DNA of 64,000 bases, taken from NCBI GenBank assembly GCA_963702845.1, contig OY969763.1, positions 4,288,001-4,352,000 of the forward strand. Direction: 5' to 3'. Source of the DNA: an uncultured Verrucomicrobiae bacterium (GTDB lineage Bacteria; Verrucomicrobiota; Verrucomicrobiia; Limisphaerales; Palsa-1400). Under the pieces are notes generated by a model that did no database searches, was not told the origin of the DNA, and saw nothing but the letters and a program-made list of their open reading frames with translations. The translations under genes and the position numbers were made by a program. How positions within the stretch are numbered: position 1 is the stretch's first letter; each line of letters starts with the position of its first letter. Shown here one piece after another: positions 80-31,146 of this stretch.

Positions 80-102
80 TGTTCGTTGATTAATTGTTAG
101 CT
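80..102 (+). repeat. Partial attI-like site (family B)
   Basis: ...gttgat-taattG|TTAGCT directly before the Imm53 ORF. Confidence 0.5.
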
Positions 103-103
103 G

Positions 104-415
104 ATGGAAGCGCTAAATAGATTGCAGCAATGGTATCGCTCCCAATGCGACGGCGTCTGGGAGCATTCATGGAGCGTTAGGATCGCCACCCTCGACAACC
201 CTGGTTGGAGCGTCGATGTTAATCTTTGCGATACACCACTTGAGGGCAAGTCATTTAAGGAACACAGCTATGGGGTTGGCAGCGCCGCGACGACTAGCGG
301 AGATGAGTGGATCGTATGCAAAGTCGAACAGAACGTATTCAAGGGTCGCGGCGGCCCTTTCAAGTTGCAGGAGTTGATTGAGGTGTTTCTTGATTGGGCG
401 GAAAAGAACGGCTAA
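104..415 (+). CDS. Immunity protein 53 (Imm53) family, cassette-borne
   Basis: LQQWYRSQCDGVWEH...IATLDNPGW signature; stop codon overlaps the GGCTAAC core. Confidence 0.85.
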   Translation: MEALNRLQQWYRSQCDGVWEHSWSVRIATLDNPGWSVDVNLCDTPLEGKSFKEHSYGVGSAATTSGDEWIVCKVEQNVFKGRGGPFKLQELIEVFLDWAEKNG

Positions 416-445
416 CCACCTATTAAGCCCGCGCGGTCGTTAGGC
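410..445 (+). repeat. Internally deleted attC-like site
   Basis: GGCTAAC...GTTAGGC cores, only 36 bp long. Confidence 0.6.
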
Positions 446-550
446 GCATTCCCGCTTTGCGCCTTGAAGTTTAACCCATCCGGTTTCACCTTCGCGCCAT
501 CGGCGGCACCGACCCACGGTTTGCCTTCAATCATTGCCCCGTTAAATCCC

Positions 551-602
551 TTGTTCGCGTCTTAAAACTATGCGAACAGTTGTCGCATATTAATCGTTAG
601 TC
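551..602 (+). repeat. attI-like site (family B)
   Basis: ttgttcgc-N13-gcgaacagttgtcgcatat-taatcG|TTAGTC; GTTAGTC is complementary to GACTAAC at the cassette end (912). Confidence 0.7.
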
Positions 603-611
603 GCGCACCAC

Positions 612-917
612 ATGAGAGCCAAAATGCCAGAGTCTCCGTTAGAGTTTTGGATATGGTTCGCCGTTATTGCCATTGTTTGTGTCGGAGCCTGTCGGTTTTC
701 TCGTCGTTGCTATTGGCTCGCTGCCCCTTTCGCAAGTTTTCTGCTTTATCAGGGGTGGAGCCTTCTTTATGCAAACGTTAGCTTCAGCGGCGAATTACTG
801 TCGCAACTAGGATTTAGCTACTGGCTTCAGTTCGCCCTATCGTATGCGCTCCCATTGATTAGCATTGCAGTTTACGCCATCTACGATTTCAGGTATCGAA
901 AGAAACATGCGGACTAA
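612..917 (+). CDS. Small membrane protein (cassette)
   Basis: About 3 hydrophobic segments; bounded by core sites. Confidence 0.75.
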   Translation: MRAKMPESPLEFWIWFAVIAIVCVGACRFSRRCYWLAAPFASFLLYQGWSLLYANVSFSGELLSQLGFSYWLQFALSYALPLISIAVYAIYDFRYRKKHAD

Positions 918-1004
918 CCAAAGCGTTCCAGCGGCCGGCGGGACGACGCTGTATTTTCAATCCTTGAGTCAGTGGCCCGCCACCGCTGAGTTTGTGTGTT
1001 AGGC
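912..1004 (+). repeat. attC site
   Basis: GACTAAC...cagcgg..ggcggg...cccgcc.ccgctg...GTTAGGC, a 93-bp imperfect palindrome. Confidence 0.85.
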
Positions 1005-1014
1005 GACTCAATTT

Positions 1015-1305
1015 ATGTCTCGAAGCGTTCACACCTCACGTCCGAAGTTCCGGAAAGCAGCGAAATATGATTATTCGTCCGAGGGCGAGCGTATTCGCGT
1101 GCTCGGGAAGATCGCCGATGAGATTATGCTTAAACGAACGATGAAGGCAAACGCTCGAATCGAGAAACAGGGCCAGAAGGCTGGCCTCAAGCGATCGCGC
1201 ATTTATGTGGAGCACCGCGCCGCCGCGTCGAAAAAGAGTCCGCCAACACCGGAAGCACAGGAGTTGGTGAAGAAGAATTACCTCGGGAGTAAGAGTTATG
1301 GTTGA
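1015..1305 (+). CDS. Hypothetical basic protein (cassette)
   Basis: ATG lies 10 bp after the attC right core. Confidence 0.65.
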   Translation: MSRSVHTSRPKFRKAAKYDYSSEGERIRVLGKIADEIMLKRTMKANARIEKQGQKAGLKRSRIYVEHRAAASKKSPPTPEAQELVKKNYLGSKSYG

Positions 1306-1376
1306 GTGGAACGAGCGTAGGCCAAACCAGGCTGGTTCTGAGTGCCACTGACAAGCATTGTTAGGGCATCATTCAT

Positions 1377-1661
1377 ATGGCCAGAACCTTGAAGGTCGAA
1401 CTCGCGGTGCCGAATGCGCTCTCCGTTCAAGACTTGGTTCCCCAATTCCAGAATTTCGGTGAGGATGTTTATCGCGCTTTGCGAAATCAGTGTGAAATCT
1501 CTATTGAAGAGATTGACCATTTCGCTGGCGCGTTCCATTTGCGGGGCATTGACAAGCGTGATGTTCGGACCATCGCTGCAGACGTGCGCAAGATCCTTGA
1601 GAAGCATCATGGGCTCACAGATGTTAAGATTTACGAAGTTCTAGATGACCCAGATGCCTAA
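1377..1661 (+). CDS. Hypothetical protein (cassette)
   Basis: Lies between GTTAGGG (1360) and GCCTAAC (1656). Confidence 0.7.
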   Translation: MARTLKVELAVPNALSVQDLVPQFQNFGEDVYRALRNQCEISIEEIDHFAGAFHLRGIDKRDVRTIAADVRKILEKHHGLTDVKIYEVLDDPDA

Positions 1662-1746
1662 CTTTTGCTCTAGCCAACCCGCCGATTGTCATCATGCGTT
1701 CATCCGGGCACTTCGTGCGGCGCGTGGCTGAACCGATTCGTTCGGG
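1656..1746 (+). repeat. attC site (degenerate)
   Basis: GCCTAAC...agcca.cccgccg...cggcgcgtggctg...GTTCGGG. Confidence 0.65.
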
Positions 1747-2025
1747 TCCGCTCTCGGTAATTCGAACGCTGATTACATAACAAAGTCAGTTGCGCGCCTG
1801 TCATCTGCGCTGCGTTGTTTTAATCATCGCTGTCGTGAGCAGCGCAGCCGCCAGTCGCTCAAGTTGGTACGAACCTTCGGCATCAGTTAGCCGCCAATAA
1901 AACCCAACGTCACAGGTTATCCAACGTCCCACGCTTCGCACGCACGACACCAATCGTGCTTCTTAATACCTCAACTTGTCGAACGCCCACCCGGCACGCG
2001 CTGTGCAGCCGGGCAGCAGATGCGC

Positions 2026-2072
2026 CAGGGCACTGAGATAATTGATTTTTAAATTAGTCAGTCAGTGCCCTG
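2026..2072. repeat. 11-bp inverted repeat with AT-rich 25-bp spacer
   Basis: CAGGGCACTGA / TCAGTGCCCTG. Confidence 0.7.
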
Positions 2073-2633
2073 TCACATTTGCTGCTAATCCGTCTGCACA
2101 CCGCTTAGCCTCCGCTGCTTGGAAGTCAGAGGTCCAAAAGATTGTTTTGATGCTCGCGATTGGAGCGCTGGGTTGTCTGACGTTGGTTTCCGCGATCTAC
2201 CGCACCAGTTTTATTTTTTGATTTTTTTCAAAGTCAATGTGATGAAAAAAATACAAAAAATAAAACAGGCGCTAGTCGGGTTTCGTGGTTCGGTGTTGCG
2301 GTTTTATAATGATGGTGTTCATAAGCCAGTTCAGTTCTGGATGTCGTGCGGGTCGCCTCAGTGGTGCCTGCCGCGTTTGCCGTGGTGGGCGCAGTATTTG
2401 TGGGTGTTCATCGTGGTTATGGGTTGGTCCCGGTATTTTCCCCGTTCGCGTCAGCCGTGGCGGTATCGTTCGCGGCGGCGTTAGTCGCCCACGCGCAACC
2501 GTATTCCAACCACCCTCTTTGCCGCCTCGATGCTCGGCAGCAGTGCTCCACACGATTTCAGTTAGTGCGCAACAATCGCTCTGCGGGGATCCGGCTGGGC
2601 GGGGGTGAGCTAATCAGGCACGAAATATTTCAC

Positions 2634-3092
2634 TCATTTTTTATAAACCTGACGCTGCTCCAAGCTGGCGCGACTATCTAGAATATAGACGCCAGCGTGA
2701 CAGGTCTGACCGTGAAAAATAGCGCCCTCTTTAGCAATACACATGCTCAATTCAAAGTCGACGAAGCCGCCGGTCCAGCCCACTTCGATGTTGTTCGTAT
2801 TAAGCCATACGTTACCAGGCCTTAACGGCACCAAGAGCGCCGGCCACTGATTTGACTCGACGTTAGAAACATTAGTCGGTTGCAACGCTGAAATCAGGCT
2901 CATGCTTTGACTGTAAAGGTTGCTCCAGTCTTGTTGTGTATAAGTGGCAATACCCTGTGTGGCTTCTTTGATCTGTTTTTCGTAGGCGGCATTGCCAGCG
3001 GACATCGCCGCAAAATAGCCAATAACGTGAAGCACAGGGATTAATACGACTGTCGCAAGAACGACAATGATGCCTATTTTTAGAACTTTCAC
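2634..3092 (-). CDS. Hypothetical membrane-anchored protein
   Basis: N-terminal hydrophobic helix; 152 aa ORF. Confidence 0.7.
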   Translation of the reverse strand: MKVLKIGIIVVLATVVLIPVLHVIGYFAAMSAGNAAYEKQIKEATQGIATYTQQDWSNLYSQSMSLISALQPTNVSNVESNQWPALLVPLRPGNVWLNTNNIEVGWTGGFVDFELSMCIAKEGAIFHGQTCHAGVYILDSRASLEQRQVYKK

Positions 3093-5628: not shown

Positions 5629-6105
5629 TCCCACCTGGCTCGCGTCCGCCCAGGGCGCGAGCCATTCACCTATGAAAAATCCATTACTCGACAACTCTCC
5701 GCGCTGGCGGCAGTGCCTCTTTCAGCTCACCCGCATTGTTACCATCGAGACCCGACGCCGTTGCATGTGCATTCCCACGCGGGAAGAAGCCAAGGACGAA
5801 GCAATCGCCTCCGTCGCCAACATGGCGCGGCGCTCGTTGCCGTCAGAATCTCGAAAAACGGCACCGGCAAGACGGCGACCTACACGTGCGCATACACCTT
5901 GCGCGAGACCCGCTCCGAGGAATTATTCTGACCTACAAACGCGGCTGGCCCTACAGGCCTGCCACTTTTTTGGAGACTCACGTCGCCTCCAAACCTCCAC
6001 GCCAGAGATTTGCAACCTCTGGACTCCGCTCTCGCGGCCTTCCCCTTTGTGAGAACTTCCGTTGCGCTAAATCCTACAACATGCAACGCTCTGTCGTTGC
6101 ACCTT

Positions 6106-6502: not shown

Positions 6503-6595
6503 TCACAAACCCCTCAACTTCCGTTGAACCACCACACGCGACTTCGTCGCGACCAAATACCGCGACGCATCCGCTACATCATCTTCGCCGCCTCC
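6503..6595 (-). pseudogene. Orphan 3' tip of a terminase large subunit gene
   Basis: Translates GGGEDDVADASRYLVATKSRVVVQRKLRGL*; the last 19 aa are identical to TerL at 7520. Confidence 0.85.
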
Positions 6596-6671
6596 AGGGG
6601 CCAGTGCGGCTCGCACCCTCCACGCCAGAGATTTGCAACCTCTGGACTCCGCTCCTTTGCCACTAGACAGA

Positions 6672-6704
6672 ATGCGAACCGTTGTCGCATATTAACCGTT
6701 AGTT
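6672..6704 (+). repeat. attI-like site (family B, short)
   Basis: atgcgaaccgttgtcgcatat-taaccG|TTAGTT. Confidence 0.6.
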
Positions 6705-6747: not shown

Positions 6748-7479
6748 ATGAGAACAGCCAATTTCAAATACGCCGTTGTATTTTTCCTATTGCTCGGCCT
6801 GCTGGTCTTCATTGCTTGTCAACACTTCCGGGCAGCTGATTTGGCCGATGAAAATGCCCGGCTTAAGAATGAAATGGCGCAGCACAAAGAGGCGGAAGAA
6901 ACCAACAACATATCTGAATCGCAACTTGCCCAAGCACAATCCGTGAATCGTGCTCAGCTAAAGGAATTACTCCGCCTGCGCACGCAGGTGACCTCGCTAA
7001 GAGCACAGTTGCCGCAACCGACGAGGCAGCCATTGAAGGCGCCGCCGTCGTCCCCGGTTCAAAAGGCGGACCCAGATGTGTCCAGTGAGGAACGTTACGC
7101 GGAGGACATCATCCCTCGGGCCACCTTCGCGCACCAGTGGATGGCCGCACTCAATGAATATGCAACCAAGAATCAGGGACGTTTTCCCACGAATTTCGAT
7201 CAAGCGGCACCATTTCTGTCGGCTGACGCCCAGGGGCAGACTAATGTCGCCACCAACGAATTCGAAATCGTTTTCCAAGGCTCCCAGAACGCTCTTACCA
7301 ACCAGGGTGACGATGAGGTGATCGTCCTGCGAGAGCGCCAGCTACGCCATAGATACGACGGCAAATGGGGGAGAGTTTACGGTCTTGCCGACGGCTCATC
7401 CCTTCAACGTTTCTTCGAAACCCAAGACGCCCTAACGCAGTGGGAGCAGGATCATCTACGAAACACCGCCTCGCCGTAG
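6748..7479 (+). CDS. Hypothetical membrane-anchored coiled-coil protein
   Basis: N-terminal TM, coiled coil, C-terminal ...VYGLADGS domain; aagga RBS. Confidence 0.75.
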   Translation: MRTANFKYAVVFFLLLGLLVFIACQHFRAADLADENARLKNEMAQHKEAEETNNISESQLAQAQSVNRAQLKELLRLRTQVTSLRAQLPQPTRQPLKAPPSSPVQKADPDVSSEERYAEDIIPRATFAHQWMAALNEYATKNQGRFPTNFDQAAPFLSADAQGQTNVATNEFEIVFQGSQNALTNQGDDEVIVLRERQLRHRYDGKWGRVYGLADGSSLQRFFETQDALTQWEQDHLRNTASP

Positions 7480-7519: not shown

Positions 7520-8914
7520 TTACAACCCGCGCAGCTTCCGTTGAACCACAACGCGCGACTTCGTCGCAACCAGATACCGCAACGCGTCGGCGGTGTCATC
7601 GCCTCCGACCCCTTCATCCGCATCCACCTTCATCACATCCTCGGGCCGATTCGGATCACGTTGCAGCGCCGGCAGACAATCAATCAGCCGCGCGCAACGC
7701 CGATGAATAAACAGCGTCGGTTTGATGCAGGCCTCCACATCACCAAACCTGTGCAAAATCTCCGCCCATCCATTCACGCGATCGGTGTTCGCACACCGCA
7801 GCGTGATTCCTTCGCGCGCATACTGCGCCGCGACCGTGGTGCCGTCGCTCTGTCGACCGAACACATCCGCGCCGGCCACGAACCGTTTCAAATCCGAAAT
7901 CTCCAATTTGCGATTTCCGATCGTCCGCCGATTCACCATCGCCTTGATCGCAAGCGCATGCCGTTGCGGCAACCAAAGCCGATCCGCATGCTCATCCACA
8001 ACGAACATATTCCCGTCGCCATCCGTGCAGCCGAGATAAACGACCGTGTAATGGTTAAAACCATAATCCAGCGCGCAGAACCACTCTCGCGCCCGCTTAT
8101 CATCGAAATCATCGATGACATGCACGTCGCGCCGGAACGTCGTGAAGAATTGCCCCGCCGCAACATCCCAATCACCATCCAGCCAAAGCCGCCGCTGCCA
8201 TGCTGGCAGCCCTTCCAAAACCCGCACATACTCCGGATTGTTGTAACGGTTATCAGTCACGCGCGCCGCGATAAAGCGCGTGTCCGTTTCCTTTCCGTCG
8301 CGGAAAGGAACAATGTATTTCGACTTATACCACTGATGCCCGATGCCGCCCGGATTCGTCGTCGAATAAATCCTCGGTCTCCAATTCGGCTTGCTCGTGC
8401 GGCAACATGTCGAAATGTCCTGATACTTGCGCGACGACAACGTCGTCGCTTCTTCAATCCCAATCACGTCGTATTCAAGCCCGAGATACGCGTCGATGTC
8501 CTTCTCGTTCTGGAAATGCCCCGCGATGATGCGCGACCCGTTCGCAAACGTCAGGATCCCGCGATAGGCCGAGAACTCATGCTTGAGTTTCCCAAACAAA
8601 CGCCGACGCAAATCCTCAAAGTGTTCCGTGTTCGCCTTGCCAACTTTGCGCAACAGCAAACACTTCAACCCAGGCACGCGCTGACAATCATCAGCGCCCA
8701 TTTGCGCGAGCAGCCAATGCGACTTACCACCACCGCGAGCGCCGCCGTAGCCGATCGCCGTTGGCCCATCGCGCCGATCACAAAGCCGCGCGGCCGCTGA
8801 CGCGGCCAGCTGCCGCTCCTGCAGGTAAATTTCTCCACGGAGGAAATTTTCCATCTGCTCGCGCGGACATCCAGCCTTGCGCCCATCGGTCAAATACGCC
8901 TTAACCGAATTCAC
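7520..8914 (-). CDS. terL: Phage terminase large subunit
   Basis: YGGARGGGKS Walker A, IGIEEA Walker B, TTNPGG, LDYG nuclease motif and DDTADALRY. Confidence 0.92.
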   Translation of the reverse strand: MNSVKAYLTDGRKAGCPREQMENFLRGEIYLQERQLAASAAARLCDRRDGPTAIGYGGARGGGKSHWLLAQMGADDCQRVPGLKCLLLRKVGKANTEHFEDLRRRLFGKLKHEFSAYRGILTFANGSRIIAGHFQNEKDIDAYLGLEYDVIGIEEATTLSSRKYQDISTCCRTSKPNWRPRIYSTTNPGGIGHQWYKSKYIVPFRDGKETDTRFIAARVTDNRYNNPEYVRVLEGLPAWQRRLWLDGDWDVAAGQFFTTFRRDVHVIDDFDDKRAREWFCALDYGFNHYTVVYLGCTDGDGNMFVVDEHADRLWLPQRHALAIKAMVNRRTIGNRKLEISDLKRFVAGADVFGRQSDGTTVAAQYAREGITLRCANTDRVNGWAEILHRFGDVEACIKPTLFIHRRCARLIDCLPALQRDPNRPEDVMKVDADEGVGGDDTADALRYLVATKSRVVVQRKLRGL

Positions 8915-9483
8915 AGCTTCCCTCCCGGCAACGCTTTCGGTTCCGCAACAATCTCCGCTTCGATCGGTTTGCCATAGACATCGTCAAGCGCCTGGACGAA
9001 TTCGACACGCAGCGTCGCGGCAACTTCCCCGGTCACTTCCGTTTTGTCCGTCGCCATACCCGACGACAACCGCCCGAGCCTGCTCGCCAGATCCAGCAAC
9101 CGCGCAATCCCTTCCAACGATCCGCACCGTTGTGGCGCCTTCTTCCACCGCGCAATCGCCTCCCGCGCCAGCTCGATCAACTCCCCGCGCGTCCGCCACT
9201 CCTCCTCGCGATGCTCCTCTTGCCGGCTGACCCATTGCGCCGCCTTGCCGCGCGTCAAAGCTTCAGTCGCTTCCCGCTCAACAATCGCAAGATGCGCCGC
9301 ATGCGCCTGCACCCGCGCCGGCCAATCAAACTTCGCCGACCACCTTCCCAACATCGTCACACTCTTGTGTAACTTCTGTGCAACCGTAGCCAGCGACCGC
9401 TCAGCACCGAGGTTCAGATACAAACTGAACGCCGCAAACGCTTTGTCCGATTCACGTGGTTGTTGTTCAAAAGGGAGAGGCAT
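8911..9483 (-). CDS. Probable terminase small subunit (HTH)
   Basis: Overlaps the terL start; RES.KAFAAF..YL...RSL..VA..L...RWS..W pattern. Confidence 0.7.
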   Translation of the reverse strand: MPLPFEQQPRESDKAFAAFSLYLNLGAERSLATVAQKLHKSVTMLGRWSAKFDWPARVQAHAAHLAIVEREATEALTRGKAAQWVSRQEEHREEEWRTRGELIELAREAIARWKKAPQRCGSLEGIARLLDLASRLGRLSSGMATDKTEVTGEVAATLRVEFVQALDDVYGKPIEAEIVAEPKALPGGKL

Positions 9484-9673
9484 TGTTTTTCTTTCAGTAA
9501 TCGAAGGTGGCCGTGCGCAAGCACCTTTCTCGAATTTCGGCGATGGTTTCGTCCACTGACAGCCGCTGCCCTGTCTTCCACCAGTGATAGCGTTCTGGCG
9601 AATCAGTCGGGATCACCAGCGTCCCATCAGCCTTCAAATACGGCAGGTTGTCGGTGGCCGTGTGCAAACACTC

Positions 9674-9885
9674 TCGGACGCTTCGGACGGGGGGACGAAA
9701 CTCCTTTAGCGTGTACGTATTAATATTCTCTTTTTTTGTGCCCCGTACAATGAGTTTTGAATACCCGTCCGAAGCGTCCGAGAATCTTCAACAGTTTCGT
9801 CGTTGGACTTTGAAACAGGCGTCCGAGGCGTCCGAACTTTCTCAAAGCTCATTTCGACTTGCGAAGAGGCGTCCGAAGCGTCCGA
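9674..9885. repeat. Iteron-like repeats, putative replication origin
   Basis: cgtccga(a/g)gcgtccga at 9766, 9820 and 9870, plus an inverted copy at 9674, around an AT-rich stretch downstream of the primase. Confidence 0.7.
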
Positions 9886-18571: not shown

Positions 18572-18663
18572 GTGGGCGAAGCCTCGCAGCTCAGCGTTAG
18601 ACGTTCAAGGATCAATGGTCGCTTGCATTTGTCTGCACCAGAGCCATCATTTGGAAATTCAGG

Positions 18664-18726
18664 TATGAACCGGCCGTTCGTATATCAAAATTACCGCGAC
18701 ACCTCGTCGCATAATCATTGTTAGGC
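18664..18726 (+). repeat. attI-like site (family C, partial)
   Basis: tatgaac-N5-gttcgtatatcaaaat..cgcgac..gtcgcataa-tcattG|TTAGGC; complementary to GCCTAAC (19031). Confidence 0.7.
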
Positions 18727-18736
18727 AGCTTGCTCT

Positions 18737-19036
18737 ATGCTCGCACTAGGAAACATCAACCCAATCGTACTAGTCGGTGCTGTTTTCCTTATGTTCAATA
18801 TCGCGGCTATCGTAACGCTAATCAGAAGTTTCACCGGCAAGCGTGCAAGCCTTACTCTTTGGATATGGGCAGCGACTGCGTTCGTATTCGGATTAGGTAT
18901 TTCAGTTTTATTTCTCACAGACGGAACAGATTTTTCTGATGACTGGCCGGATTGGCTTCTTGCAATTGTGCCATTGGTTTGCGGTGGTGTTACGTGTTTA
19001 AGAATGCTATTCCTGCGACATGAAAAGGCGGCCTAA
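18737..19036 (+). CDS. Small membrane protein (cassette)
   Basis: 3 TM segments; bounded by complementary cores. Confidence 0.75.
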   Translation: MLALGNINPIVLVGAVFLMFNIAAIVTLIRSFTGKRASLTLWIWAATAFVFGLGISVLFLTDGTDFSDDWPDWLLAIVPLVCGGVTCLRMLFLRHEKAA

Positions 19037-19264
19037 CGATGGCGCTCCAGCGCCTATGAGGTTTGTCAATACGTAGTGTGCGTCGATGATAGTTTTTTTG
19101 GGGTTGATCGCGCGGAGCGCAGTGGAACGAAGCGCAGTCGCGCGCGGCAGGCGGTTGGACATTGGTTCAATCCGCACCTGTTGTTCTTCTCGAGTCTCCG
19201 CTTATCTGTTCCTCTTCAAAGTTCCTTTCTTATTTCTCTCAAAGCAGGTTGCGTGAAGTTTGCT

Positions 19265-19450
19265 GCATCGGTGTCGCCGCGTTTTGTGTGTCGGGAGTTT
19301 GTCCCGCACCAGCTCCTATCCGGACAGTTGAGATAAGACTCAACGCCCACTGTGTCTTACTTGCCTGACTGCGGCGACCGGGGAGTCCGCCCCTTCTAAC
19401 GGACGGATGAACGCAAGGTTCACCAGCTGAAGCTACGGACTGGACTCGCC
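19265..19450 (-). ncRNA. Putative bridge/seek RNA
   Basis: Two stem-internal-loop-stem units whose loops match the attC target and the IS circle junction. Confidence 0.7.
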
Positions 19451-19514
19451 CGATCGCAAATTGTTTCACGCTCTTAACTCTGGAGGTTCTACTCACGAAA
19501 AAATTAAATGTGGT

Positions 19515-20666
19515 TCACACGCCGACCCAGCCGAGGTCTGCCATGGTGCAACGGCCGGTTCGCCAGCGCCAGAGGTCCACGGCCAGTTGCCGGGCAAGGG
19601 CAATGACAGTTTTCTTCTTCATGGCCGTGCCGGCGGCAAGTTTGGTTTTCATTTTAAGTGCGGCCTTCCACCCCGGTTGCCACATCAGAAAACGCCAGAC
19701 CGCTTCCACCAGGATCGCTCTGACTCGTCCGTTGCCCATGCGATCGATGCTGCCGACGCGCCGTTTGCCTCCTGAACTGTGTTCGCCCGGGCAACATCCG
19801 GTGTAGCTGCCAATCTGTTTGCGATTGTGGAAGCGCTGCCAGTCGCACACTTCGCCTTCCAGTGTCACAAGAGTGATCTCGCCAAGGCCCTTGGGCCGTG
19901 GTTGTTCTTTGACCCGCGCAATCAGTTCCTCTTCCAGTTCCTGCCGTTGTGTCTCCATGGCGACGAGGACCTCGCGGAGCTTTTCGAGAACACCGAGCAG
20001 CCACGGATCGAGGGTGGAAAGTTTTTTCCAGTTGCGCGCTCCCCACCAGCGATGGGGCAGTTTGACGTGGCTGTATTCGGCGGCTTGGCCGTGACCGCGA
20101 TTGGCGAGCATGCGAATGGCTTTGTTGAGGAACTGTCTTCGTCGCGTGCCTTCGCGCTGGCGCTGCTCTTTGTCCGAAGGAATGCGGATGGGTGCAAGTT
20201 CGTTGATGTTGCCATCAACCCAGCGAGAGAGGCGCAGGCAAAGAGCGCGCGCGTCCAGCTTGTCGGTCTTGCGCTGGCCGTTGAGGGCAATCGGCGTGAT
20301 CAGAAAACTTTGCGCACCGGCGGCGACTAGTTCGCGATGGAGCACGAAGCCGAACCCACAGCTTTCCTGCACGCAGAAAACTTGCAGGCCTTCGCTGGTC
20401 CACTTCTGAACCTGGGCGATGAGTTGCTCACGGCTGAATTTGCGTGGCGCTTGGGGTGAAGCGTGATCACGTTGGGCTACCGCCATGATGAACTCCAGAT
20501 GCACGTCCAGGCCAAGCTTGAGAGCCGGTTTGCCGGCAAGCAGCACAGGACGTGGCAAAGGCTGGCGCGGCGGCACGTTTGCCAGCTTGCCCGCGGCAGG
20601 CACGCTGGTTAGGGTTGGGACTGTCATGTGGGGTTTGAGTAAATATGTTTTCATTTTCAAAAACAT
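19515..20666 (-). CDS. IS110-family transposase/recombinase
   Basis: GLDVH, QESCG and KTDKLDA (DEDD); GCCPGEHSSG catalytic Ser region. Start codon uncertain. Confidence 0.95.
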   Translation of the reverse strand: MFLKMKTYLLKPHMTVPTLTSVPAAGKLANVPPRQPLPRPVLLAGKPALKLGLDVHLEFIMAVAQRDHASPQAPRKFSREQLIAQVQKWTSEGLQVFCVQESCGFGFVLHRELVAAGAQSFLITPIALNGQRKTDKLDARALCLRLSRWVDGNINELAPIRIPSDKEQRQREGTRRRQFLNKAIRMLANRGHGQAAEYSHVKLPHRWWGARNWKKLSTLDPWLLGVLEKLREVLVAMETQRQELEEELIARVKEQPRPKGLGEITLVTLEGEVCDWQRFHNRKQIGSYTGCCPGEHSSGGKRRVGSIDRMGNGRVRAILVEAVWRFLMWQPGWKAALKMKTKLAAGTAMKKKTVIALARQLAVDLWRWRTGRCTMADLGWVGV

Positions 20667-20792
20667 CGTGACCCCGTGTGGGGCTGCGACTCAACCCTTC
20701 ATGACATCTGACGGCGGGACGCCGCTGGATTTGCAATTCTCGTGTCAGTGGCCCGCCGCCGCTGAGCTGAAACGTTATGCTCTGAGCACCTT

Positions 20793-21342: not shown

Positions 21343-21376
21343 GCATAACCCGCCGCCGCTGAGCTGTGTGTTAGGC
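21343..21376 (+). repeat. Internally deleted attC
   Basis: GCATAAC-ccgccgccgctgagctgtgt-GTTAGGC. Confidence 0.7.
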
Positions 21377-21397
21377 AGCAAACAAACCGGAGCACGT

Positions 21398-21607
21398 ATG
21401 AACATGAAAAGCATCATTTCGAGAACCGAGTCTCTGCAGATTCTCAAGAATCAGCTTCGGAAGGATGCGCTGGAAAAGCGGGCGGCTGAGCTGAAGGACG
21501 CCAACGCGGAAAAGCGCGAGGCGATACTCGCTGAGATTGAGCGCAATATTCAGAGGGAAGTTAAGGAACGCGCATGGACCCCCGGCTTCGGCAGAGTGAT
21601 CCACTGA
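21398..21607 (+). CDS. Small hypothetical protein (cassette)
   Basis: ggag RBS; 5' part is duplicated at 28818. Confidence 0.7.
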   Translation: MNMKSIISRTESLQILKNQLRKDALEKRAAELKDANAEKREAILAEIERNIQREVKERAWTPGFGRVIH

Positions 21608-21621
21608 AGTATGCAAACCGA

Positions 21622-21673
21622 GCCCAACAATCGTGCTGGAGCGGCCGCCGGGACAACGCTGCGTTTTGAATCC
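21622..21673 (+). repeat. Left half of an attC, truncated
   Basis: GCCCAAC...ggagcggccgccgggacaacgctg, then fused to the family-B upstream sequence. Confidence 0.7.
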
Positions 21674-21703
21674 TGCCTTCAATCATTGCCCCGTTAAAAC
21701 CCC

Positions 21704-21755
21704 TTGTTTGCCTATTAAAAACATGCGAACAGTTGTTGTATATTAATTGTTAAGC
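21704..21755 (+). repeat. attI-like site (family B)
   Basis: Ends in G|TTAAGC, complementary to GCTTAAC (22047). Confidence 0.7.
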
Positions 21756-21767: not shown

Positions 21768-22052
21768 ATGCGATTTCATCAATCCAATTCACGATGGGGC
21801 ACGGGGCGACAAATTGCGGCAAGCATCATGGGCCTCTTGCTCGGCTTATGGCTCGACCTTCGCTACTTCCACCTCGGGCGTGTGCGAGGCTATCTACTTC
21901 TCATCTTCTGCATGCTTGGCAGCTACCTTGTGTTAACGCTGTTCTCCTTGGCATGGACCGGAATCGTAAGATTGTGGCGCAGCATCTTTCCCGCACGTCA
22001 GACCAAGGTCCATTTACCAGAATCAAAAAGGCATGACAGCACCTCGGCTTAA
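21768..22052 (+). CDS. Small membrane protein (cassette)
   Basis: 2 TM segments; complementary cores. Confidence 0.7.
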   Translation: MRFHQSNSRWGTGRQIAASIMGLLLGLWLDLRYFHLGRVRGYLLLIFCMLGSYLVLTLFSLAWTGIVRLWRSIFPARQTKVHLPESKRHDSTSA

Positions 22053-22133
22053 CATGCGCTGAGCTTGGTCGTTAAACATTCTTCACCCGCACGCTGCTCT
22101 CGATGATGCCCGCGCTGATGGCGTTTTAAACCC

Positions 22134-22185
22134 TTGTTCGCGGATTAAAAACATGCAAACTGTTGTCGCAGATAAATTGGTAGGC
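22134..22185 (+). repeat. attI-like site (family B)
   Basis: ttgttcgcggattaaaaacatgcaaactgttgtcgcagat-aaattG|GTAGGC. Confidence 0.65.
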
Positions 22186-22684: not shown

Positions 22685-22710
22685 GGACCGATTAATTCCC
22701 TCGTTACGCA

Positions 22711-22878
22711 CTCCATTTCCAATCGCGGATTTCCGGCATGTCGTCGCCGTGCTCGCGAGCGCGTTGTGTTGCGCTTGCTTCGCAGCGCCAGCATAACAAT
22801 AATCTCCTCAACCAATATGAACCAACCGTTCGTATATCAAAATCACCGCGACAGCGTGTCGCATAATCATAGTTGGCC
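22711..22878 (+). repeat. attI-like repeat (family C, 168 bp)
   Basis: Near-identical to 23484-23651; ends in G|TTGGCC, complementary to GGCCAAC (23369). Confidence 0.8.
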
Positions 22879-22887
22879 TGTGAGCGC

Positions 22888-23358
22888 ATGGTGACATTTC
22901 ACACAGCCCTAAAGTTCGTCGTGGGACACGTTCTCGCGGGCGCGGTTGTGATTCTTGGGACGCTGCTTGTGGCGTTGGCTTGCTACGTTATTGGGCTTGC
23001 CACCGCACCTCATGGCATTGACACCCCGGCGGCGGTGATCCCCGAGTTCCTCACGTTGATGTTCATGGTTGGAGTTTTTGCTTTGGTTGCTTCTACCGCT
23101 TCATTCCTGATCTCCGTGCTGCTGACATGGCTTCGCACGAAGCGGCACTTTCCGGCCTGGCTTCCAGTGGTCACCATTCCGCTCCTCACTTTCGTTGTCG
23201 TTCTGGTGATTTTTGGACGGACGCGCGACATGAGTTTTGTGGCGGTCGTGACGGGCATGGCATTTGTCTACTTTGGGATTTACTGGGTGCTTCTTACATC
23301 CTCGGGGGCCGTGCTGGACTTCCTCCGCAGGAAGTTATTTCGCCAAAAAGCAACATGA
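22888..23358 (+). CDS. 4-TM membrane protein (cassette)
   Basis: Hydrophobic; bounded by cores. Confidence 0.75.
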   Translation: MVTFHTALKFVVGHVLAGAVVILGTLLVALACYVIGLATAPHGIDTPAAVIPEFLTLMFMVGVFALVASTASFLISVLLTWLRTKRHFPAWLPVVTIPLLTFVVVLVIFGRTRDMSFVAVVTGMAFVYFGIYWVLLTSSGAVLDFLRRKLFRQKAT

Positions 23359-23368
23359 GAATCGTGGA

Positions 23369-23461
23369 GGCCAACAAGCGTGCTGGAGGCACGGGCCGGA
23401 TTGCCTCTTCGTTCCATGTTTTACATCCTCGGCTGGCCCTGCCTCAGCACCATCGTTAGAC
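23369..23461 (+). repeat. attC site
   Basis: GGCCAAC...gtgctg.gaggca.gggcc...ggccctgcctcagcac...GTTAGAC. Confidence 0.85.
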
Positions 23462-23483
23462 TGCTTCGCCCTTTCCCTACGAA

Positions 23484-23651
23484 CTCCATTTCCAATCGCG
23501 GATCTCCGGCATGTCGTCGCCGTGCTCGCGAGCGCGTTCTGTTGCGCTTGATTTGCAGCGGCAGCAGAACAATAGTCTCCTCAACCAATATGAACCAACC
23601 GTTCGTATATCAAAATCACCGCGATACCCCGTCGCATAATTATAGTTAGAA
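23484..23651 (+). repeat. attI-like repeat (family C)
   Basis: Ends in G|TTAGAA, complementary to TTCTAAC (23881). Confidence 0.8.
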
Positions 23652-23652
23652 G

Positions 23653-23871
23653 ATGGGACACGCGATGGCGAACCAAGAGGATGATCCAGATGCCGCAGCA
23701 CTCGCCGAGCGCTACCCGAGCTTGCGCCGAATCGGCGAGCGGATGAAGATTGAGTCCGGCCCACTGGCTGGAGAGCCGGTTGTGATTCGCAGGCGGCTCA
23801 CCGAGCGCGGAGTATTATTCACATTCAGATATGATGACGGAAAGGTTCGAGAGTGGGAGTGGTGGGATTGA
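23653..23871 (+). CDS. Small hypothetical protein (cassette)
   Basis: Bounded by complementary cores. Confidence 0.65.
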   Translation: MGHAMANQEDDPDAAALAERYPSLRRIGERMKIESGPLAGEPVVIRRRLTERGVLFTFRYDDGKVREWEWWD

Positions 23872-23880
23872 GACCGCTTG

Positions 23881-23973
23881 TTCTAACTATCGTGCTACAC
23901 TCGACGCGGCGATGACGCTTCTGTTTCAGTTCGAACATCGCGGACGCCGCGCGAGTGAGCGCCGGCGTTAGAC
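23881..23973 (+). repeat. attC site
   Basis: TTCTAAC...cactcg.cgcggcg...cgccgcgcgagtg...GTTAGAC. Confidence 0.85.
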
Positions 23974-23990
23974 CACTTCGGGAGGCACCA

Positions 23991-24641: not shown

Positions 24642-24645
24642 CTGG

Positions 24646-24740
24646 GTCTAACAAAATCACTGCAGCCAACGCCGGATGGTGCAGTCAGTTCCGCTTTCGC
24701 GGTTCACGTCATCGGCCCGGCGCGGTTGAGTTCTATCGGC
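24646..24740 (+). repeat. attC site (right core degenerate)
   Basis: GTCTAAC is complementary to GTTAGAC (23967); cagcc.acgccgg...ccggcgcggttg. Confidence 0.7.
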
Positions 24741-24758
24741 CCTACACTTGATACGTAT

Positions 24759-25220
24759 ATGAAACGAGCTTTCTATTTGCTGTTGCTGATTTCGGGTATC
24801 TGCACCGCTCAAACGAAGTTTACCTTTTATCCCACGCAACACATTTTCACATTAGAAGGCAAAAGATACGCCACATCCATTGATGAAGCTGCACTTGAGG
24901 CAAGTCCGACATGGGACATGAGCAAACCTCCGCCGATCAGTTTCAAACAAGTAGTTGAGGTCGCTCGCAATGAGTTTGGAAAACGGCTGCGGGCCAAACC
25001 CGAATGGAGGGTTCGTTCGATCGAGCTTTACCCGGCGAACTCGCCGCACGAGGGAAAATGGTACTACGTAGTTTTGCTGGAACCTCAACCAAACGGAGGC
25101 CATACCGGAGAAAGTTTTACCACGCTGGTCGATTTTTCTGGCAAGCCGGGAAAGATAATATTGGACAGCGGCGACTCGTGGACGCAGCGCGAAAGCAAAG
25201 CGAACGGCAAAAGTCCCTAA
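24759..25220 (+). CDS. Hypothetical secreted protein (cassette)
   Basis: Signal peptide; ends at CCCTAAC. Confidence 0.7.
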   Translation: MKRAFYLLLLISGICTAQTKFTFYPTQHIFTLEGKRYATSIDEAALEASPTWDMSKPPPISFKQVVEVARNEFGKRLRAKPEWRVRSIELYPANSPHEGKWYYVVLLEPQPNGGHTGESFTTLVDFSGKPGKIILDSGDSWTQRESKANGKSP

Positions 25221-25249
25221 CGTAGTTCGTTAGGAGCATCCCAGCCATC

Positions 25250-27911: not shown

Positions 27912-28097
27912 AAAATCTTTTTTTGGGGGCACCAGCGCGTGGCGACAGACGTAAAAGAACGTTACCCGACTATTGGCTCAAGGGCTGCAATGGCTGGCCA
28001 CTCCCAGTTGACTGTCCACACTCAGAGGCGCAGCATACACCACGTAAATCAACCCGATGTGAGGTAATATGTTGTTGGTTAGACTGCGAGTATTTCT

Positions 28098-28286
28098 ATG
28101 AACAACAAAACGTCCGCGCAAAGTGCCCGAAGGTGGGGATGGCCGATTCTCGGTATCATCGCTTTCGGAGTTTTGATGGGCGCACGAAAGCAGTTTCACT
28201 CTATTTGGTTGCGTTCGTTGGTCGCAGCGTGCGCGTTCGCAGTTCTCGCAGTTTCGTTACCGTTATTTCGGAGGACCAGAAATTGA
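28098..28286 (+). CDS. Small 2-TM protein
   Basis: Hydrophobic ORF coupled to the next gene. Confidence 0.55.
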   Translation: MNNKTSAQSARRWGWPILGIIAFGVLMGARKQFHSIWLRSLVAACAFAVLAVSLPLFRRTRN

Positions 28287-28693
28287 AAACGCTGTCTAAC
28301 AAAAGCGCCCCAACTTCGCTCAAAGTTCTATGCGCCGTCGTCATAATTTTGCTTCTCGCTTGCGTTGGCTTTTTGGCGAACGCCGTTTGGACGAATTTCT
28401 GGTGGAAGCAGCAGGTTTACGGGCTCGCACGATATCAAGGTGCCACCCGAGCGCTGCACGATTTTCAGTCTGGCAGGCTGCGACTCTTTGTCGTTGCGGG
28501 CGAGCGCGACACCGATAAATTTTCCGGCACAAATGAGGGTCCGTTTGATATTCGGTTTCCGCAGTATTATCAGAAGTCATTCCCTATGCGTTATTCGGTC
28601 GAGCAGATGGTTGACATGTATAACGAAAAAATGCGCTATATGCGTGAGCGTCCAGACAAGTTCCTGAGCACGACAAACAGCCCGAAAAAATGA
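28283..28693 (+). CDS. Hypothetical membrane-anchored protein (cassette)
   Basis: ggagga RBS with TTG start; followed by attC. Confidence 0.65.
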   Translation: MKTLSNKSAPTSLKVLCAVVIILLLACVGFLANAVWTNFWWKQQVYGLARYQGATRALHDFQSGRLRLFVVAGERDTDKFSGTNEGPFDIRFPQYYQKSFPMRYSVEQMVDMYNEKMRYMRERPDKFLSTTNSPKK

Positions 28694-28703
28694 CACGTCC
28701 CCA

Positions 28704-28796
28704 CCCTAACTTTCGCGCTCCATCGAACGGCTGGTTGACGCTACGTTTGCAATCCATGAGTCAGTGGCCCGCCGCCGCTAATCTGAATTGTTGGGC
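28704..28796 (+). repeat. attC site
   Basis: CCCTAAC...caatccatgagtcagtggcccgccgccgct...GTTGGGC; same family as 912-1004. Confidence 0.8.
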
Positions 28797-28807
28797 AGGA
28801 AAAAAGT

Positions 28808-28922
28808 CGGAGCACGTATGAACATGAAAAGCATCATTTCGAGAACCGAGTCTCTGCAGATTCTCAAGAATCAGCTTCGGAAGGATGCGCTGGAAAAGCG
28901 GGCGGCTGAGCTGAAGGACGCC
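28808..28922 (+). pseudogene. Truncated identical copy of the cassette ORF at 21398
   Basis: 115 bp identical to 21388-21502. Confidence 0.9.
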
Positions 28923-28982
28923 TGTTTAACCCAACCAATTTCGCCTTTGCGCCGACCAATTCACCACCGTCGTTTCGCGCCT

Positions 28983-30021
28983 CTATCCTTTCTTACTGGT
29001 TGTTTTTTGAAGTTTTAGGTATAGCGCCGCTGCCCCGAGACTTAGCACTGTAAACAAAATATAAACACCCAACCGATCCGATTTCGGTGTTTGACCGTGC
29101 ATCGCAACGTGGGCTGGTTGTCGCGGTTTAACCAAAACCCCATTTGTATTGCGGACGAAGAGCACGTTATTGCTATAGAAATTGGTAAGCTGGATGTTCG
29201 TTGTTGCGAGCCGTGCAACAGAAAAAAAGTCGTTCGGCAACCCAGCAGGGGCAGTTTTTACTTCAAGAAGTGCCAATTCCAAAATGGCCTTCATTTCACC
29301 TTCCACTGGTGACGAGATAGTCATGCGTTCAGGGAACCCACCGAGCTGGGTAGCAAGAACGGGAAATACATACGAAATTATCCTGAACGGCTTCACTCTT
29401 CCCTTTAATCGCAGGGAAAGTTTAACAGGCACATCGTTCGATAAGCTAAGCTCGCCCAGAACCTCGTTTCCACTCGGCGCAATAGCAGTTAATTCAGTGC
29501 CATGCCACTCGATTTTCTGAAGGTCGAAATCGGGAACTCCCATGTTCAAAAACTGACCAACATAAGCGGCAAATACACCCCCTGAAGAATCTACCGCGTT
29601 TTCCGAGTTAGAAACGCCAACAGATACCAACTTGCCAGCAACCTGATAGGTTTTTCCTTCATTCCGACCAACTAATTGAGTCCGATCTTCCCAACGAGGA
29701 CCATTTGAATCGCTCGCAACTATCGAGAAAAAAAAGTCGTTCCCTTGTCGACCGCCCTCGCAAAAGAATGTGATCGGCATCTCTACCTTCGGTGCTTTTG
29801 GCCCAACACTGAATGTAGGTACTCTTGCCGCGAAACCGTTCTACCGGAACAGGAGAGGTAAGCGCTCGCTTGAAAAAGGAAACTAAATCCAGGTCTCCGG
29901 ATTGGATTGTAGCAGCGCCAGCACTATGTGTAATGCCCAGAGAAGCAACGATAAAAACAAAGATTAGGGTAACATGCCGCCAAAGAGGGAACCTAATACC
30001 AGACAACGAGTCAAATATCAT
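28983..30021 (-). pseudogene. Frameshifted secreted protein with C-terminal TM
   Basis: Two overlapping ORFs (29659-30021 and 28983-29780). Confidence 0.55.
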
Positions 30022-30191
30022 ACGCCAATTGCCGCAATTTTCGACAAAAAAACAATGTATTGCTCAAGACCTAATCGTGTCAAAACAACGGTCACGCGTA
30101 TATCACTCAATTGGGGTATTCTTACGATGCAAGATCCACGGCCACCTTGTCTATCCACCCGAAGCGTCAGGAGTTTGAACCTCAAAAACCC

Positions 30192-30241
30192 TTGTTCGCG
30201 GATTAAAATTATGCGAACAGTTGTCGCATTAATTGTTATGC
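30192..30241 (+). repeat. attI-like site (family B)
   Basis: Ends in G|TTATGC; the cassette ends with GCATAAT (30625). Confidence 0.7.
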
Positions 30242-30630
30242 CTAAGCGTCACAAAATCCCTTTTGCCAATCGGAACCACTCCGGATGGTGGATTTTTCGT
30301 GAGGTGGAGCAGTGGGTATCGAAGAACAAGAAGCCATCGCCCCGAAGTCGTTATCCGATCTGGGAGAACACCCGATTGCTCCGCGCGAAGAACCGGAAGG
30401 AAGCATACCGCAAAGCATTGAAGCTGGGCCGCGAAGGGCATCCGTCTAAAACCAAGGAGGGCGAGTGGCGCTTCGCAGGCATTTCCATGCTCCTGCCGGT
30501 CTATGAAGACATCGAAGACGGAGCAGAGATTCTCTGGGTGGATCGTGGCTCTCTGCGACTCAGCAGCATCCGGAAGCTGGTCAAATCTAAGCGCCAGCTC
30601 CCCATTTTCGATGACAACGAAGAAGCATAA
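30238..30630 (+). CDS. DUF4288-like protein (cassette)
   Basis: WENT.LL.A....EAY.KA..LG...WRFAGI..L....DGAE. Confidence 0.7.
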   Translation: MPKRHKIPFANRNHSGWWIFREVEQWVSKNKKPSPRSRYPIWENTRLLRAKNRKEAYRKALKLGREGHPSKTKEGEWRFAGISMLLPVYEDIEDGAEILWVDRGSLRLSSIRKLVKSKRQLPIFDDNEEA

Positions 30631-30692
30631 TTATCGCGCTGCATTTCACGCGGGGACTCCGCCAGCAACGAAGGCGTTCTCAGTAGATGCAG

Positions 30693-31146
30693 GTTTCGGC
30701 ACCACCACCGTCTTCGCAACCTCCATCGCGCCAAACCTGCGCGCCACCTCCAAACACTTGTTCGCGGATTAAAAATGTGCGAACTATTGGCGTATGGCCA
30801 CATTGATTTACTGACTGGGGAGGCAGTGCTTGAAGGAGATGTCGTAAAACTCCACACTTGGTCATGTGTTGTCGTTACGGTCGTTCAGCCAGGTAGCCCG
30901 GACTGGGATGATTACGGAGGCATTTCACTGAAATGTTTGGAAGGCGGGCCGATTCGACTTGAGCGCGTCAATGAGGATCTCATTTTAGTCAGTCGGAAGG
31001 CTTCGCGATGAATTGCCTAACGAGACTATAGTTTCGGCACCACACCGTCTTCGCAACCTCCATCGCGCCAAACCTGCGCGCCACCTTTAAAACATTGTTC
31101 GCCGATAAAAACTATGCGAACAGTTGTCGCAGATTAATGGTTAAGC
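30693..31146 (+). repeat. Two tandem leader plus family-B units (30693-30790 and 31031-31146)
   Basis: About 57-bp near-identical leader, each followed by ttgttcgc...gcgaac; the second ends in G|TTAAGC. Confidence 0.8.
30775..31011 (+). CDS. Small hypothetical protein
   Basis: 78-aa ORF between the repeats; start uncertain. Confidence 0.5.
   Translation: MCELLAYGHIDLLTGEAVLEGDVVKLHTWSCVVVTVVQPGSPDWDDYGGISLKCLEGGPIRLERVNEDLILVSRKASR

What the first reader, a model, noticed from the sequence alone, without database searches (positions are those of the whole stretch)
80..31146. Many attI-like landing sites with no integron integrase, inside a terminase-bearing integrative element
Seen: about 8 family-B repeats (80, 551, 6672, 21704, 22134, 30192, 30758, 31095) and 3 family-C repeats (18664, 22711, 23484). 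Most intact copies end in GCGA-N7-TCGCA-N8-G|TTRRRY directly in front of a cassette ORF. The GTT core opening a cassette is often the exact complement of the AAC core closing it (596/912, 18720/19031, 21749/22047, 22872/23369, 23645/23881). Established: this is the footprint of a circular cassette integrated by IntI, and a canonical integron has a single attI beside intI. Inference: the element carries a poly-attI platform, either an array of landing pads served in trans by a host IntI or a collection of harvested attI-plus-first-cassette blocks. This matches neither a standard integron nor a standard CALIN.
Basis: partly seen in the sequence, partly recalled or inferred. Interest (0 to 1): 0.9.

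Follow-up and report, generated by a model that had tools for sequence, protein, structure and literature searches.

The report
Multiplied integron docking sites, no integrase
A short DNA site that in related bacteria lies beside the integron integrase gene, as the docking point for gene cassettes, occurs about 70 times in this genome, which has no integron integrase; eleven copies lie in this stretch, inside a phage-like island.

Summary
All 11 listed repeat copies exist. Eight carry GCGA-N7-TCGCA-N8-GTTRRRY (0.93 expected by chance). All five listed opening and closing cores are exact 7-nt complements.

The attI reading is supported by a new test. In five related genomes the stretch directly beside the integron-integrase start codon aligns with family B over about 55 nt and ends in the same G|TTAGGC, and in the two read downstream ordinary cassettes follow. 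Families B and C do not fold like attC; four neighbouring attC sites do.

The "platform of this element" reading is not supported. The genome holds 69 copies in 29 clusters, and only 15 lie in this 46.9-kb tRNA-Asp island. No IntI gene or remnant was found in the genome.

At least the long family-C unit behaves like a cassette. It starts at a crossover (G|TTAGAC), carries a scrap of the phosphoketolase gene that abuts the presumed ancestral C site, and ends in the C site.

Best reading (0.6): attI-derived sites were copied as cassette-like units into cassette arrays lacking an integrase (CALINs), which are now decaying. Recombination activity is untested.

This scan noted the same thing earlier in other windows of this genome.

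The parts
61..102 (+). Family B copy with an internal deletion; crossover at G96|T97, in front of the Imm53 cassette.
   Evidence: It shares its upstream hairpin module with the genome copy at 1826859.
104..415 (+). Cassette ORF, Imm53 immunity-protein family.
   Evidence: Pfam PF15580, E 4e-31. The closing core GGCTAAC at 409-415 matches the opening GTTAGCT at 6 of 7 positions.
409..445 (+). Shortened attC remnant: R'' box, 22 nt, then GTTAGGC.
   Evidence: Read. It is too short for a full attC. Similar short sites lie at 21343-21366, 22047-22077 and 25214-25237.
440..602 (+). Spacer unit that starts at G|TTAGGC and ends in family B (545-602); crossover at G596|T597.
912..1004 (+). Canonical attC of cassette 597-998.
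   Evidence: The bottom strand folds with its two end boxes paired. GACTAAC is the exact complement of the opening GTTAGTC.
6505..6595 (+). Duplicated stub of the terminase large-subunit 3' end (78% identical to 7522-7612), upstream of family B.
   Evidence: (D7). The same stub-plus-hairpin module precedes B copies elsewhere.
6647..6704 (+). Family B copy in front of ORF 6748-7479; no attC follows.
7520..9483 (-). Terminase large (7520-8914) and small (8911-9483) subunit genes of the island.
   Evidence: PHROGs: terminase large subunit E 1.4e-25, small subunit E 1.2e-20.
18595..18726 (+). Unit that starts at G|TTAGAC (18594) and ends in the family C core (18664-18726); crossover at G18720.
19042..20715 (-). 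IS110-family insertion sequence inserted in the attC of cassette 18721-19041.
   Evidence: Pfam PF02371, E 4.7e-16. Six copies at 95-100% identity in the genome.
21698..21755 (+). Family B copy joined to the left arm of an attC (21619-21672).
22128..22185 (+). Family B copy with a degenerate core (GGTAGGC). The 200 nt behind its end are 99.5% identical to those behind the B copy at genome 0.179 Mb (end at 178994).
22705..22878 (+). Long family C unit: reverse phosphoketolase 3' scrap plus the C core at 22816-22878.
   Evidence: (D2).
23369..23462 (+). Canonical attC of cassette 22873-23456.
   Evidence: Fold (the stretch folded was 23363-23462). GGCCAAC is the exact complement of GTTGGCC.
23457..23651 (+). 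Long family C unit bounded by crossovers on both sides: TTAGAC, flank, reverse phosphoketolase scrap, then the C core ending at G23645.
23881..23975 (+). Canonical attC of cassette 23646-23969.
   Evidence: Best attC-like fold: -25.5 kcal/mol, z -3.1.
24645..24733 (+). attC of the family shared with the integrons of a related genome.
   Evidence: An nhmmer profile of three attC sites from G005 hits 24648-24712, E 1.7e-7. The fold did not pair its ends.
28704..28796 (+). Canonical attC, same family as 912-1004.
   Evidence: (D3).
30186..30241 (+). Family B copy with a 2-nt deletion, in front of a DUF4288 gene.
30743..30795 (+). Family B copy that lacks its 3' third and the GTT core.
31089..31146 (+). 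Family B copy preceded by GCCTAAC and a shared upstream module; a small ORF and then a DUF2071 gene follow.
34854..36209 (-). Tyrosine integrase of the island; not an integron integrase.
   Evidence: PHROG 1 integrase, E 2.1e-20. TIGR02249 gives no match here.
36270..36352 (-). tRNA-Asp (36276-36352). Its 3' end is repeated (28 of 29 nt) 10.6 kb before the window start, so the island spans 46.9 kb.

Best explanation
Families B and C are two subfamilies of an attI-type site, the double-stranded docking site of the integron found in this bacterial family. In this genus they have been multiplied.

Inferred mechanism. A small circle carrying an intact attI plus adjacent array-flank DNA was integrated through its attI into attC sites of existing cassette arrays. 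Each insertion places an attI core directly in front of the next cassette. This preserves that cassette's own TTRRRY, which is why the opening core mirrors the closing core. The units then spread by further site-specific or homologous recombination, including into the cargo region of a family of phage-like islands.

The integron integrase has since been lost or was never resident. The sites and arrays are now inert relics that are decaying, unless an IntI arrives in trans.

Shown: the repeats, the crossover junctions, the homology to sites beside intI, the absence of intI, and the origin of the phosphoketolase scrap.

Inferred: the circular intermediate, the action of IntI, and the present inactivity.
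For: 1. Homology to real attI. IntI scores over the cut-off in 4 of 31 genomes of the family. In G005, G012, G018 and G025 the best weak family-B match lies directly beside the intI start codon, in the attI orientation (4 of 6 loci). The read sequences confirm this, as does a fifth genome, G006. The alignment covers about 55 nt and ends in the same ATTAATTG|TTAGGC. In G005 and G018 cassettes with 99-nt attC sites follow. That attC family has 12 hits in this genome, one of them in the window.

2. Specificity. None of 30 intI loci from other families of the order matches B or C (best E 0.57 and 0.071).

3. Not attC. In B and C the R box stays unpaired, whereas attC sites at 912, 23369, 23881 and 28704 fold end to end.

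4. Cassette-like unit. Seven long C copies start at an attC-borne G|TTA(G/A)AC followed by the same flank (one of the seven is a degenerate TCTAGAC). The arm is the reverse 3' end of a phosphoketolase gene (XFP_C, E 1.8e-11). The only full-length phosphoketolase gene has, abutting its 3' end, a C site followed by one cassette and then an attC ending in G|TTAGAC.

5. Junction behaviour. B sites at matching positions next to the portal gene in sister islands have 96% and 90% identical upstream DNA and unrelated DNA downstream.

6. No IntI. There is no TIGR02249 match over the cut-off in this one-contig genome. tblastn with a relative's IntI finds only 28%-identical Xer-like genes.

7. Low-copy precedent in relatives. 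Genomes with intI hold 1 to 3 attI-like sites each, against 0 for the control pattern. Of the four extra copies read (of five), all keep an intI 5' stub; three head a cassette and the fourth (G006) is followed by no cassette.
Against: - No recombination was observed or can be tested here.
- The left boundaries of B units are heterogeneous. Only 2 of 8 B copies in the window start at an R' box. Others are joined to an attC left arm, a terminase stub or other modules, so many junctions need deletions or homologous exchange.
- The block behind 22185 shares B's right part with its copy at 0.179 Mb, but B's left part differs. This fits homologous exchange inside B.
- For 3 of the 11 window copies I found no cassette closing core behind the following ORF, and for a fourth only a 6-of-7 match without AAC.
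- C copies are 82-96% alike in a genome without IntI. This calls for recent activity or another copying process.
- Base-pair covariation in the inverted repeats is weak.
- The two same-genus genomes are only 67-73% complete, so the absence of intI from the genus is not shown.
Confidence: 0.6

Rival explanations
1. Live landing pads. The many attI-type sites are kept because an integron integrase supplied in trans (by an incoming plasmid, phage or integron) inserts cassettes at each of them. Together they form a distributed integron.
For: - Different cassettes sit behind B sites at matching positions in sister islands.
- Opening and closing cores are exact complements for 5 of 5 listed cassettes.
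- Copies within a cluster are co-oriented in 28 of 29 clusters.
- B and C are well conserved, while several attC sites are shortened.
Against: - No IntI in the genome, and none found in the two same-genus genomes.
- Truncated or deleted copies at 61-102 and 30743-30795, and a degenerate core at 22179.
- The complementarity is equally explained by an attI unit inserting into a pre-existing attC junction.
Confidence: 0.15
2. Expression modules. B and C persist and spread because they act as promoters or operators, or as 5' leader elements, for the otherwise promoterless ORF that starts shortly downstream.
For: - In most copies an ATG follows the site within about 30 nt (judged by eye, not counted).
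- There are AT-rich TATTAAT or CATAAT boxes and inverted repeats that could bind a regulator.
- On the opposite strand the C hairpin scores as terminator-like at all three window copies.
Against: - The sigma-70 scan flags only 1 of the 6 copies in the two scanned stretches (21715, 9 of 12 matches), and promoter-like hits overall do not exceed shuffles.
- This reading does not explain why conservation ends exactly at G|TT, nor the homology to sites beside intI.
Confidence: 0.1
3. Boundary modules for another exchange process. Either homologous recombination between related phage-like islands swaps cargo, using B, C and the gene-end stubs as portable homology, or a different tyrosine recombinase (host Xer-like, or the island integrase) acts on the sites, as with pdif modules (recalled).
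For: - Half of the copies (35 of 69) lie in six phage-like island intervals.
- Terminase-end stubs flank cargo.
- There is a breakpoint inside B for the duplicated block at 22128.
- Two Xer-like genes are present.
Against: - 34 of 69 copies lie outside the islands.
- Real attC sites with matching cores lie in the same arrays.
- The sites are homologous to attI beside intI.
- The island integrase's own 29-nt attachment repeat at tRNA-Asp was located; I did not compare it with B or C.
- No dif-like 11-6-11 site was found for comparison.
Confidence: 0.15

Closest known systems
   Same: - About 55 nt of sequence homology.
- The same layout: an inverted repeat, a 9-nt AT-rich spacer, then G|TTAGGC.
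- A cassette ORF follows directly.
- Arrays with the same attC family.
   Different: In the relatives there are 1 to 3 copies, one of them beside an intact intI. Here there are 69 copies, none beside intI, and they are interspersed within arrays and joined to scraps of other genes.
[quoted passage not shown]
   Same: Cassette arrays without an integrase inside phage or prophage DNA. An attI copy heads an array that has no intI of its own.
   Different: That case has two attI sites and an intact integrase in the same prophage. Here there are dozens of sites, two subfamilies, and no integrase anywhere in the genome.
Complex class 1 integrons with a second attI1, such as those on SGI1-type islands (PMC7056807 and PMC2297512; search listing only)
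   Same: The attI is duplicated within one cassette-bearing structure.
   Different: Those are duplications of large conserved segments that keep intI1. They are not short attI units scattered among cassettes.
Species-specific attC repeat families of sedentary chromosomal integrons, such as the Vibrio VCR (recalled)
   Same: A highly similar repeat recurs at cassette boundaries throughout long arrays.
   Different: VCRs are attC sites that fold as imperfect hairpins with paired end boxes. B and C do not.

Membership tests
integron attI site | Lies directly beside intI, at the head of the array. | tested here: not met
   No intI in this genome. The homologous site does lie beside intI in five related genomes.
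integron attI site | Ends in the crossover G|TTRRRY, with cassettes joined exactly there. | tested here: met
   8 motif matches against 0.93 expected. Genome-wide conservation stops at G|TT. 5 of 5 listed opening cores mirror the closing core.
integron attI site | Sequence homology to an attI of a related integron. | tested here: met
   Alignment A2 covers about 55 nt with 14 invariant columns across 4 attI, 5 B and 2 C sequences. No such similarity in 30 intI loci from other families.
integron attI site | Bound and recombined by the cognate IntI. | not testable with these tools
   Needs an attI x attC assay with an IntI from a relative.
integron attC site | Imperfect palindrome in which R'' pairs with R' and L'' with L' on the folded bottom strand. 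| tested here: not met
   In 6 folded B and C stretches the R box is unpaired, apart from two bases in one weak fold (21698-21755, -2.1 kcal/mol); otherwise only small internal hairpins form. 4 of 6 neighbouring attC candidates pair end to end.
CALIN (cluster of attC sites lacking an integron integrase; definition recalled from Cury et al. 2016, PMC4889954, search listing only) | At least two attC sites close together. | tested here: met
   attC sites at 912-1004, 23369-23462, 23881-23975 and 28704-28796 by fold, and 24648-24712 by profile. IntegronFinder itself was not run.
CALIN | No integron integrase nearby. | tested here: met
   none in the whole genome.
complete integron | An intI gene with the integron-specific domain. 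| tested here: not met
   The best TIGR02249 match is 86 bits against a cut-off of 265.
sigma-70 promoter (Pc-like) | -35 and -10 hexamers with 16-18 nt spacing. | tested here: not met
   One weak hit among the 6 copies in the two scanned stretches. Totals are at or below shuffle expectation.
Xer/dif-type module boundary (pdif-like; recalled) | Two 11-nt arms around a 6-nt centre that resemble the host dif site. | tested here: inconclusive
   No dif candidate was found by two simple scans, so no comparison was possible.

The most novel reading that the evidence does not exclude
attI sites can themselves be mobilised as cassettes. A circle holding an attI plus whatever DNA flanks the array integrates into attC sites. 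This seeds new array heads across a chromosome and inside phage-like capsid islands, and it packages ordinary chromosomal DNA (here a phosphoketolase gene end) into cassette form. That would be a natural route by which non-cassette DNA enters integron arrays. It would also give a distributed integron whose many heads wait for an integrase supplied in trans.
Probability: 0.3. Interest if true: 0.8.

Novelty: new variant of a known kind. Interest (0 to 1): 0.66.

Why it matters
Textbook integrons have one attI beside intI, and attI is treated as a fixed platform feature. This genome holds about 70 attI-derived sites and no integrase. One subfamily still carries a scrap of the gene that abutted its original locus.

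If IntI made these units, three things follow:
- attI can be copied like cargo.
- DNA flanking an array can be turned into a cassette-like unit. This bears on the open question of how cassettes arise.
- Phage-like islands can carry ready-made array heads between cells.

There is also a practical point. As I recall, integron-finding programs annotate attI only for the clinical integron classes. They would therefore report such arrays as plain CALINs and miss the sites.

Tried and rejected
- Home-made attC finders. One used the minimum-energy fold and two used arm complementarity. They found almost none of the attC sites visible by eye and were dropped. attC sites were instead delimited by reading and checked by folding. 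In that check, 24645-24733 and 1656-1747 did not pair their ends.
- Covariation in the two B inverted repeats. Cells are 90-92% paired, but there are too few double changes to show structure.
- A possible intI remnant beside a weak B copy at 4.979 Mb. It is noise: 33 residues at E 8 genome-wide.
- Host dif search. No candidate was found.
- Sequencing runs. No RNA holder is listed.
- Phosphoketolase search. The region at 0.18 Mb and a regex scan found no full gene. A Pfam search of the genome did find it.
- B and C profiles against 30 intI loci from other families of the order. No match.
- Same-genus copies. They are divergent, and none of their downstream flanks matched the genome. Upstream flanks gave only short matches (65-223 nt) away from listed B or C copies, so they gave no test of cassette turnover.
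- Literature. Searches for 'multiple attI sites', 'attI-like', 'attI x attI' and 'second attI' found no report of many attI copies. I did not look for that paper or see it, so I do not rely on it.
- Not used: structure prediction, complex prediction, the large protein searches and the read-laying tool.

Full report
**The observation.** Both repeat families are real. The repeat finder returned six family-B copies and three family-C copies in 1-33000, and a 170-nt long form of C present twice at 92% identity. Alignment and profile search add the damaged copies at 61-102 and 30743-30795. Chance expectation is 0.93, and none of 100 shuffles reaches eight. The five listed pairs of opening GTT core and closing AAC core are all exact 7-nt complements (read). 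A sixth pair matches at six of seven positions. For three copies (6698, 22179, 31140) I found no matching closing core behind the following ORF, and after 30235 only GCATAAT, a 6-of-7 match without AAC.

**Scale.** A profile of the window copies run on the whole one-contig genome finds 39 B and 30 C copies at E<1e-5. A second model built from 26 B copies finds 46 at E<=0.001. The 69 copies lie in 29 clusters, and all but one cluster are co-oriented. In nearly all copies conservation ends at G|TTRRRY and the downstream sequence differs. An ATG usually lies within about 30 nt (judged by eye). B and C align with each other and share one layout: GTTCG, an AT-rich stretch, a short inverted repeat, nine AT-rich bases, then G|TTAGGC.

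**What the sites are.**
- No IntI here. The integron integrase model TIGR02249 finds no match over its cut-off in this genome; the best is 86 bits against 265. tblastn with a relative's IntI finds only 28%-identical Xer-like genes.
- IntI in relatives. Four of 31 genomes of the same family have IntI over the cut-off, as do 84 of 251 sampled genomes of the order.
- Homology beside intI. In four of the six family loci the best weak B match sits directly beside the intI start codon, pointing away from it. The sequence there, CATTTGGCCATTGTAATACACGAACAACCTGTTGTATATTAATTG|TTAGGC, aligns with B over about 55 nt. A fifth genome shows the same.
- Real integrons. In two of these relatives ordinary cassettes with a conserved 99-nt attC follow. 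That attC family has 12 hits in this genome, one at window 24648-24712.
- Specificity. The similarity is specific to this bacterial family: none of 30 intI loci from other families matches B or C.
- Fold. Folded as single strands, the attC sites at 912, 23369, 23881 and 28704 pair their two end boxes. B and C leave the R box unpaired, apart from two bases in one weak fold.

B and C are therefore attI-type, not attC-type.

**How they were copied.** The long C unit at 23457-23651 begins at the crossover of the preceding attC (G|TTAGAC) and ends at its own crossover. Seven long C copies across the genome start in the same way, one with a degenerate box, and the same flank follows. The arm between flank and core is the reverse complement of the last 50 codons of a phosphoketolase gene (XFP_C, E 1.8e-11).

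The genome has one full phosphoketolase gene. Abutting its 3' end are a C site, one cassette, and an attC that ends in G|TTAGAC followed by the same flank. The unit is therefore a circular permutation of that locus, opened at the attI crossover. This is what integration of an attI-bearing circle into an attC would leave. The circle and the enzyme are inferred.

B units are less tidy. Two of the eight in the window start at an R' box. Others are joined to an attC left arm, to a duplicated terminase 3' stub (6505-6595 against 7522-7612) or to other shared modules.

Relatives that do have intI hold one to three attI-like sites each. I read four of the five extra copies. All keep a stub of the intI 5' end; three head a cassette and the fourth, in G006, is followed by no cassette. 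Low-level copying of attI therefore occurs where the enzyme is present.

**Context.** tRNA-Asp lies at 36276-36352 and a tyrosine integrase beside it. A 28-of-29 repeat of the tRNA 3' end lies 10.6 kb before the window start, which delimits a 46.9-kb island. The island has terminase, primase, helicase and exonuclease genes in the window, and portal, scaffold, major head and adaptor genes just upstream. Cassette arrays fill the gap between the portal and terminase genes and a second region at 18.6-31.1 kb.

At least four sister islands with the same layout exist. Six island intervals hold 35 of the 69 copies, 15 of them in this island. B sites at matching positions next to the portal gene in sister islands have 96% and 90% identical DNA upstream and unrelated DNA downstream. 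Conversely, the 200 nt behind 22185 recur at 99.5% identity behind the B copy at 0.179 Mb, where the upstream module and B's left half differ. This points to homologous exchange as well.

**Decay.** Several attC sites are shortened to an R'' box plus a right arm (409-445, 21343-21366, 22047-22077, 25214-25237). One attC is split by an IS110-family element that has six copies in the genome. Three window copies of B are damaged. This fits arrays that no integrase maintains any longer.

**Rivals.** A sigma-70 scan gives no support for a promoter in B or C, and no RNA run was listed. A Xer-type or island-integrase mechanism could not be tested, because no dif site was found. Live landing pads served in trans remain possible, but they need an integrase that the genome does not encode.

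**Known work.** CALINs in phages, and a prophage with a complete integron plus a CALIN that each have their own attI, are described in PMC9892861 (passages read). Four searches found no report of many attI copies. Earlier agents of this scan reached a similar reading on other windows of this genome. I re-tested their main claims here.

**Verdict.** The attI identity is supported. The idea of a platform belonging to this element is not supported, and the mechanism is inferred.

Noticed in passing
window 19042-20715: A 1.67-kb IS110-family insertion sequence lies inside an attC site. Six copies at 95-100% identity exist in the genome. At least two others also abut attC-like sequence. This resembles the attC-targeting IS1111 group (recalled).
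   Followed up: partly
window 5984-6031, 6505-6654 and 7522-7612: The last 91 nt of the terminase large-subunit gene are duplicated 1 kb away. A 48-nt hairpin module (CCAGAGATTTGCAACCTCTGG) recurs upstream of many family-B copies genome-wide.
   Followed up: partly
window 9663-9885: Between the small terminase gene and the next ORF lie a long inverted repeat and three roughly 50-nt-spaced copies of GCGTCCGAAGCGTCCGA. This could be a packaging or replication site of the island.
   Followed up: no
window 21369-21502 and 28789-28922: A 134-nt piece of a cassette, including the start of its ORF, is duplicated at 96% identity 7.4 kb away. The second copy is cut off.
   Followed up: no
L063 (genome 4276001-4288000), just before the window: The island's head module (adaptor, major head, scaffold, portal) lies here, with six more B and C copies between the portal gene and the window start. 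No tail gene was recognised among the ORFs scanned.
   Followed up: partly
window 37015-45818: Outside the island lie a phosphodiesterase-family gene, an 883-residue gene with adenylation, carrier and thioesterase domains, a MatE-like gene and glycosyltransferase genes.
   Followed up: no
L010 (G023), beside intI: In this relative the stretch beside intI is not B-like. It looks like the right arm of the family's attC joined to the intI start, and it contains two N.
   Followed up: no
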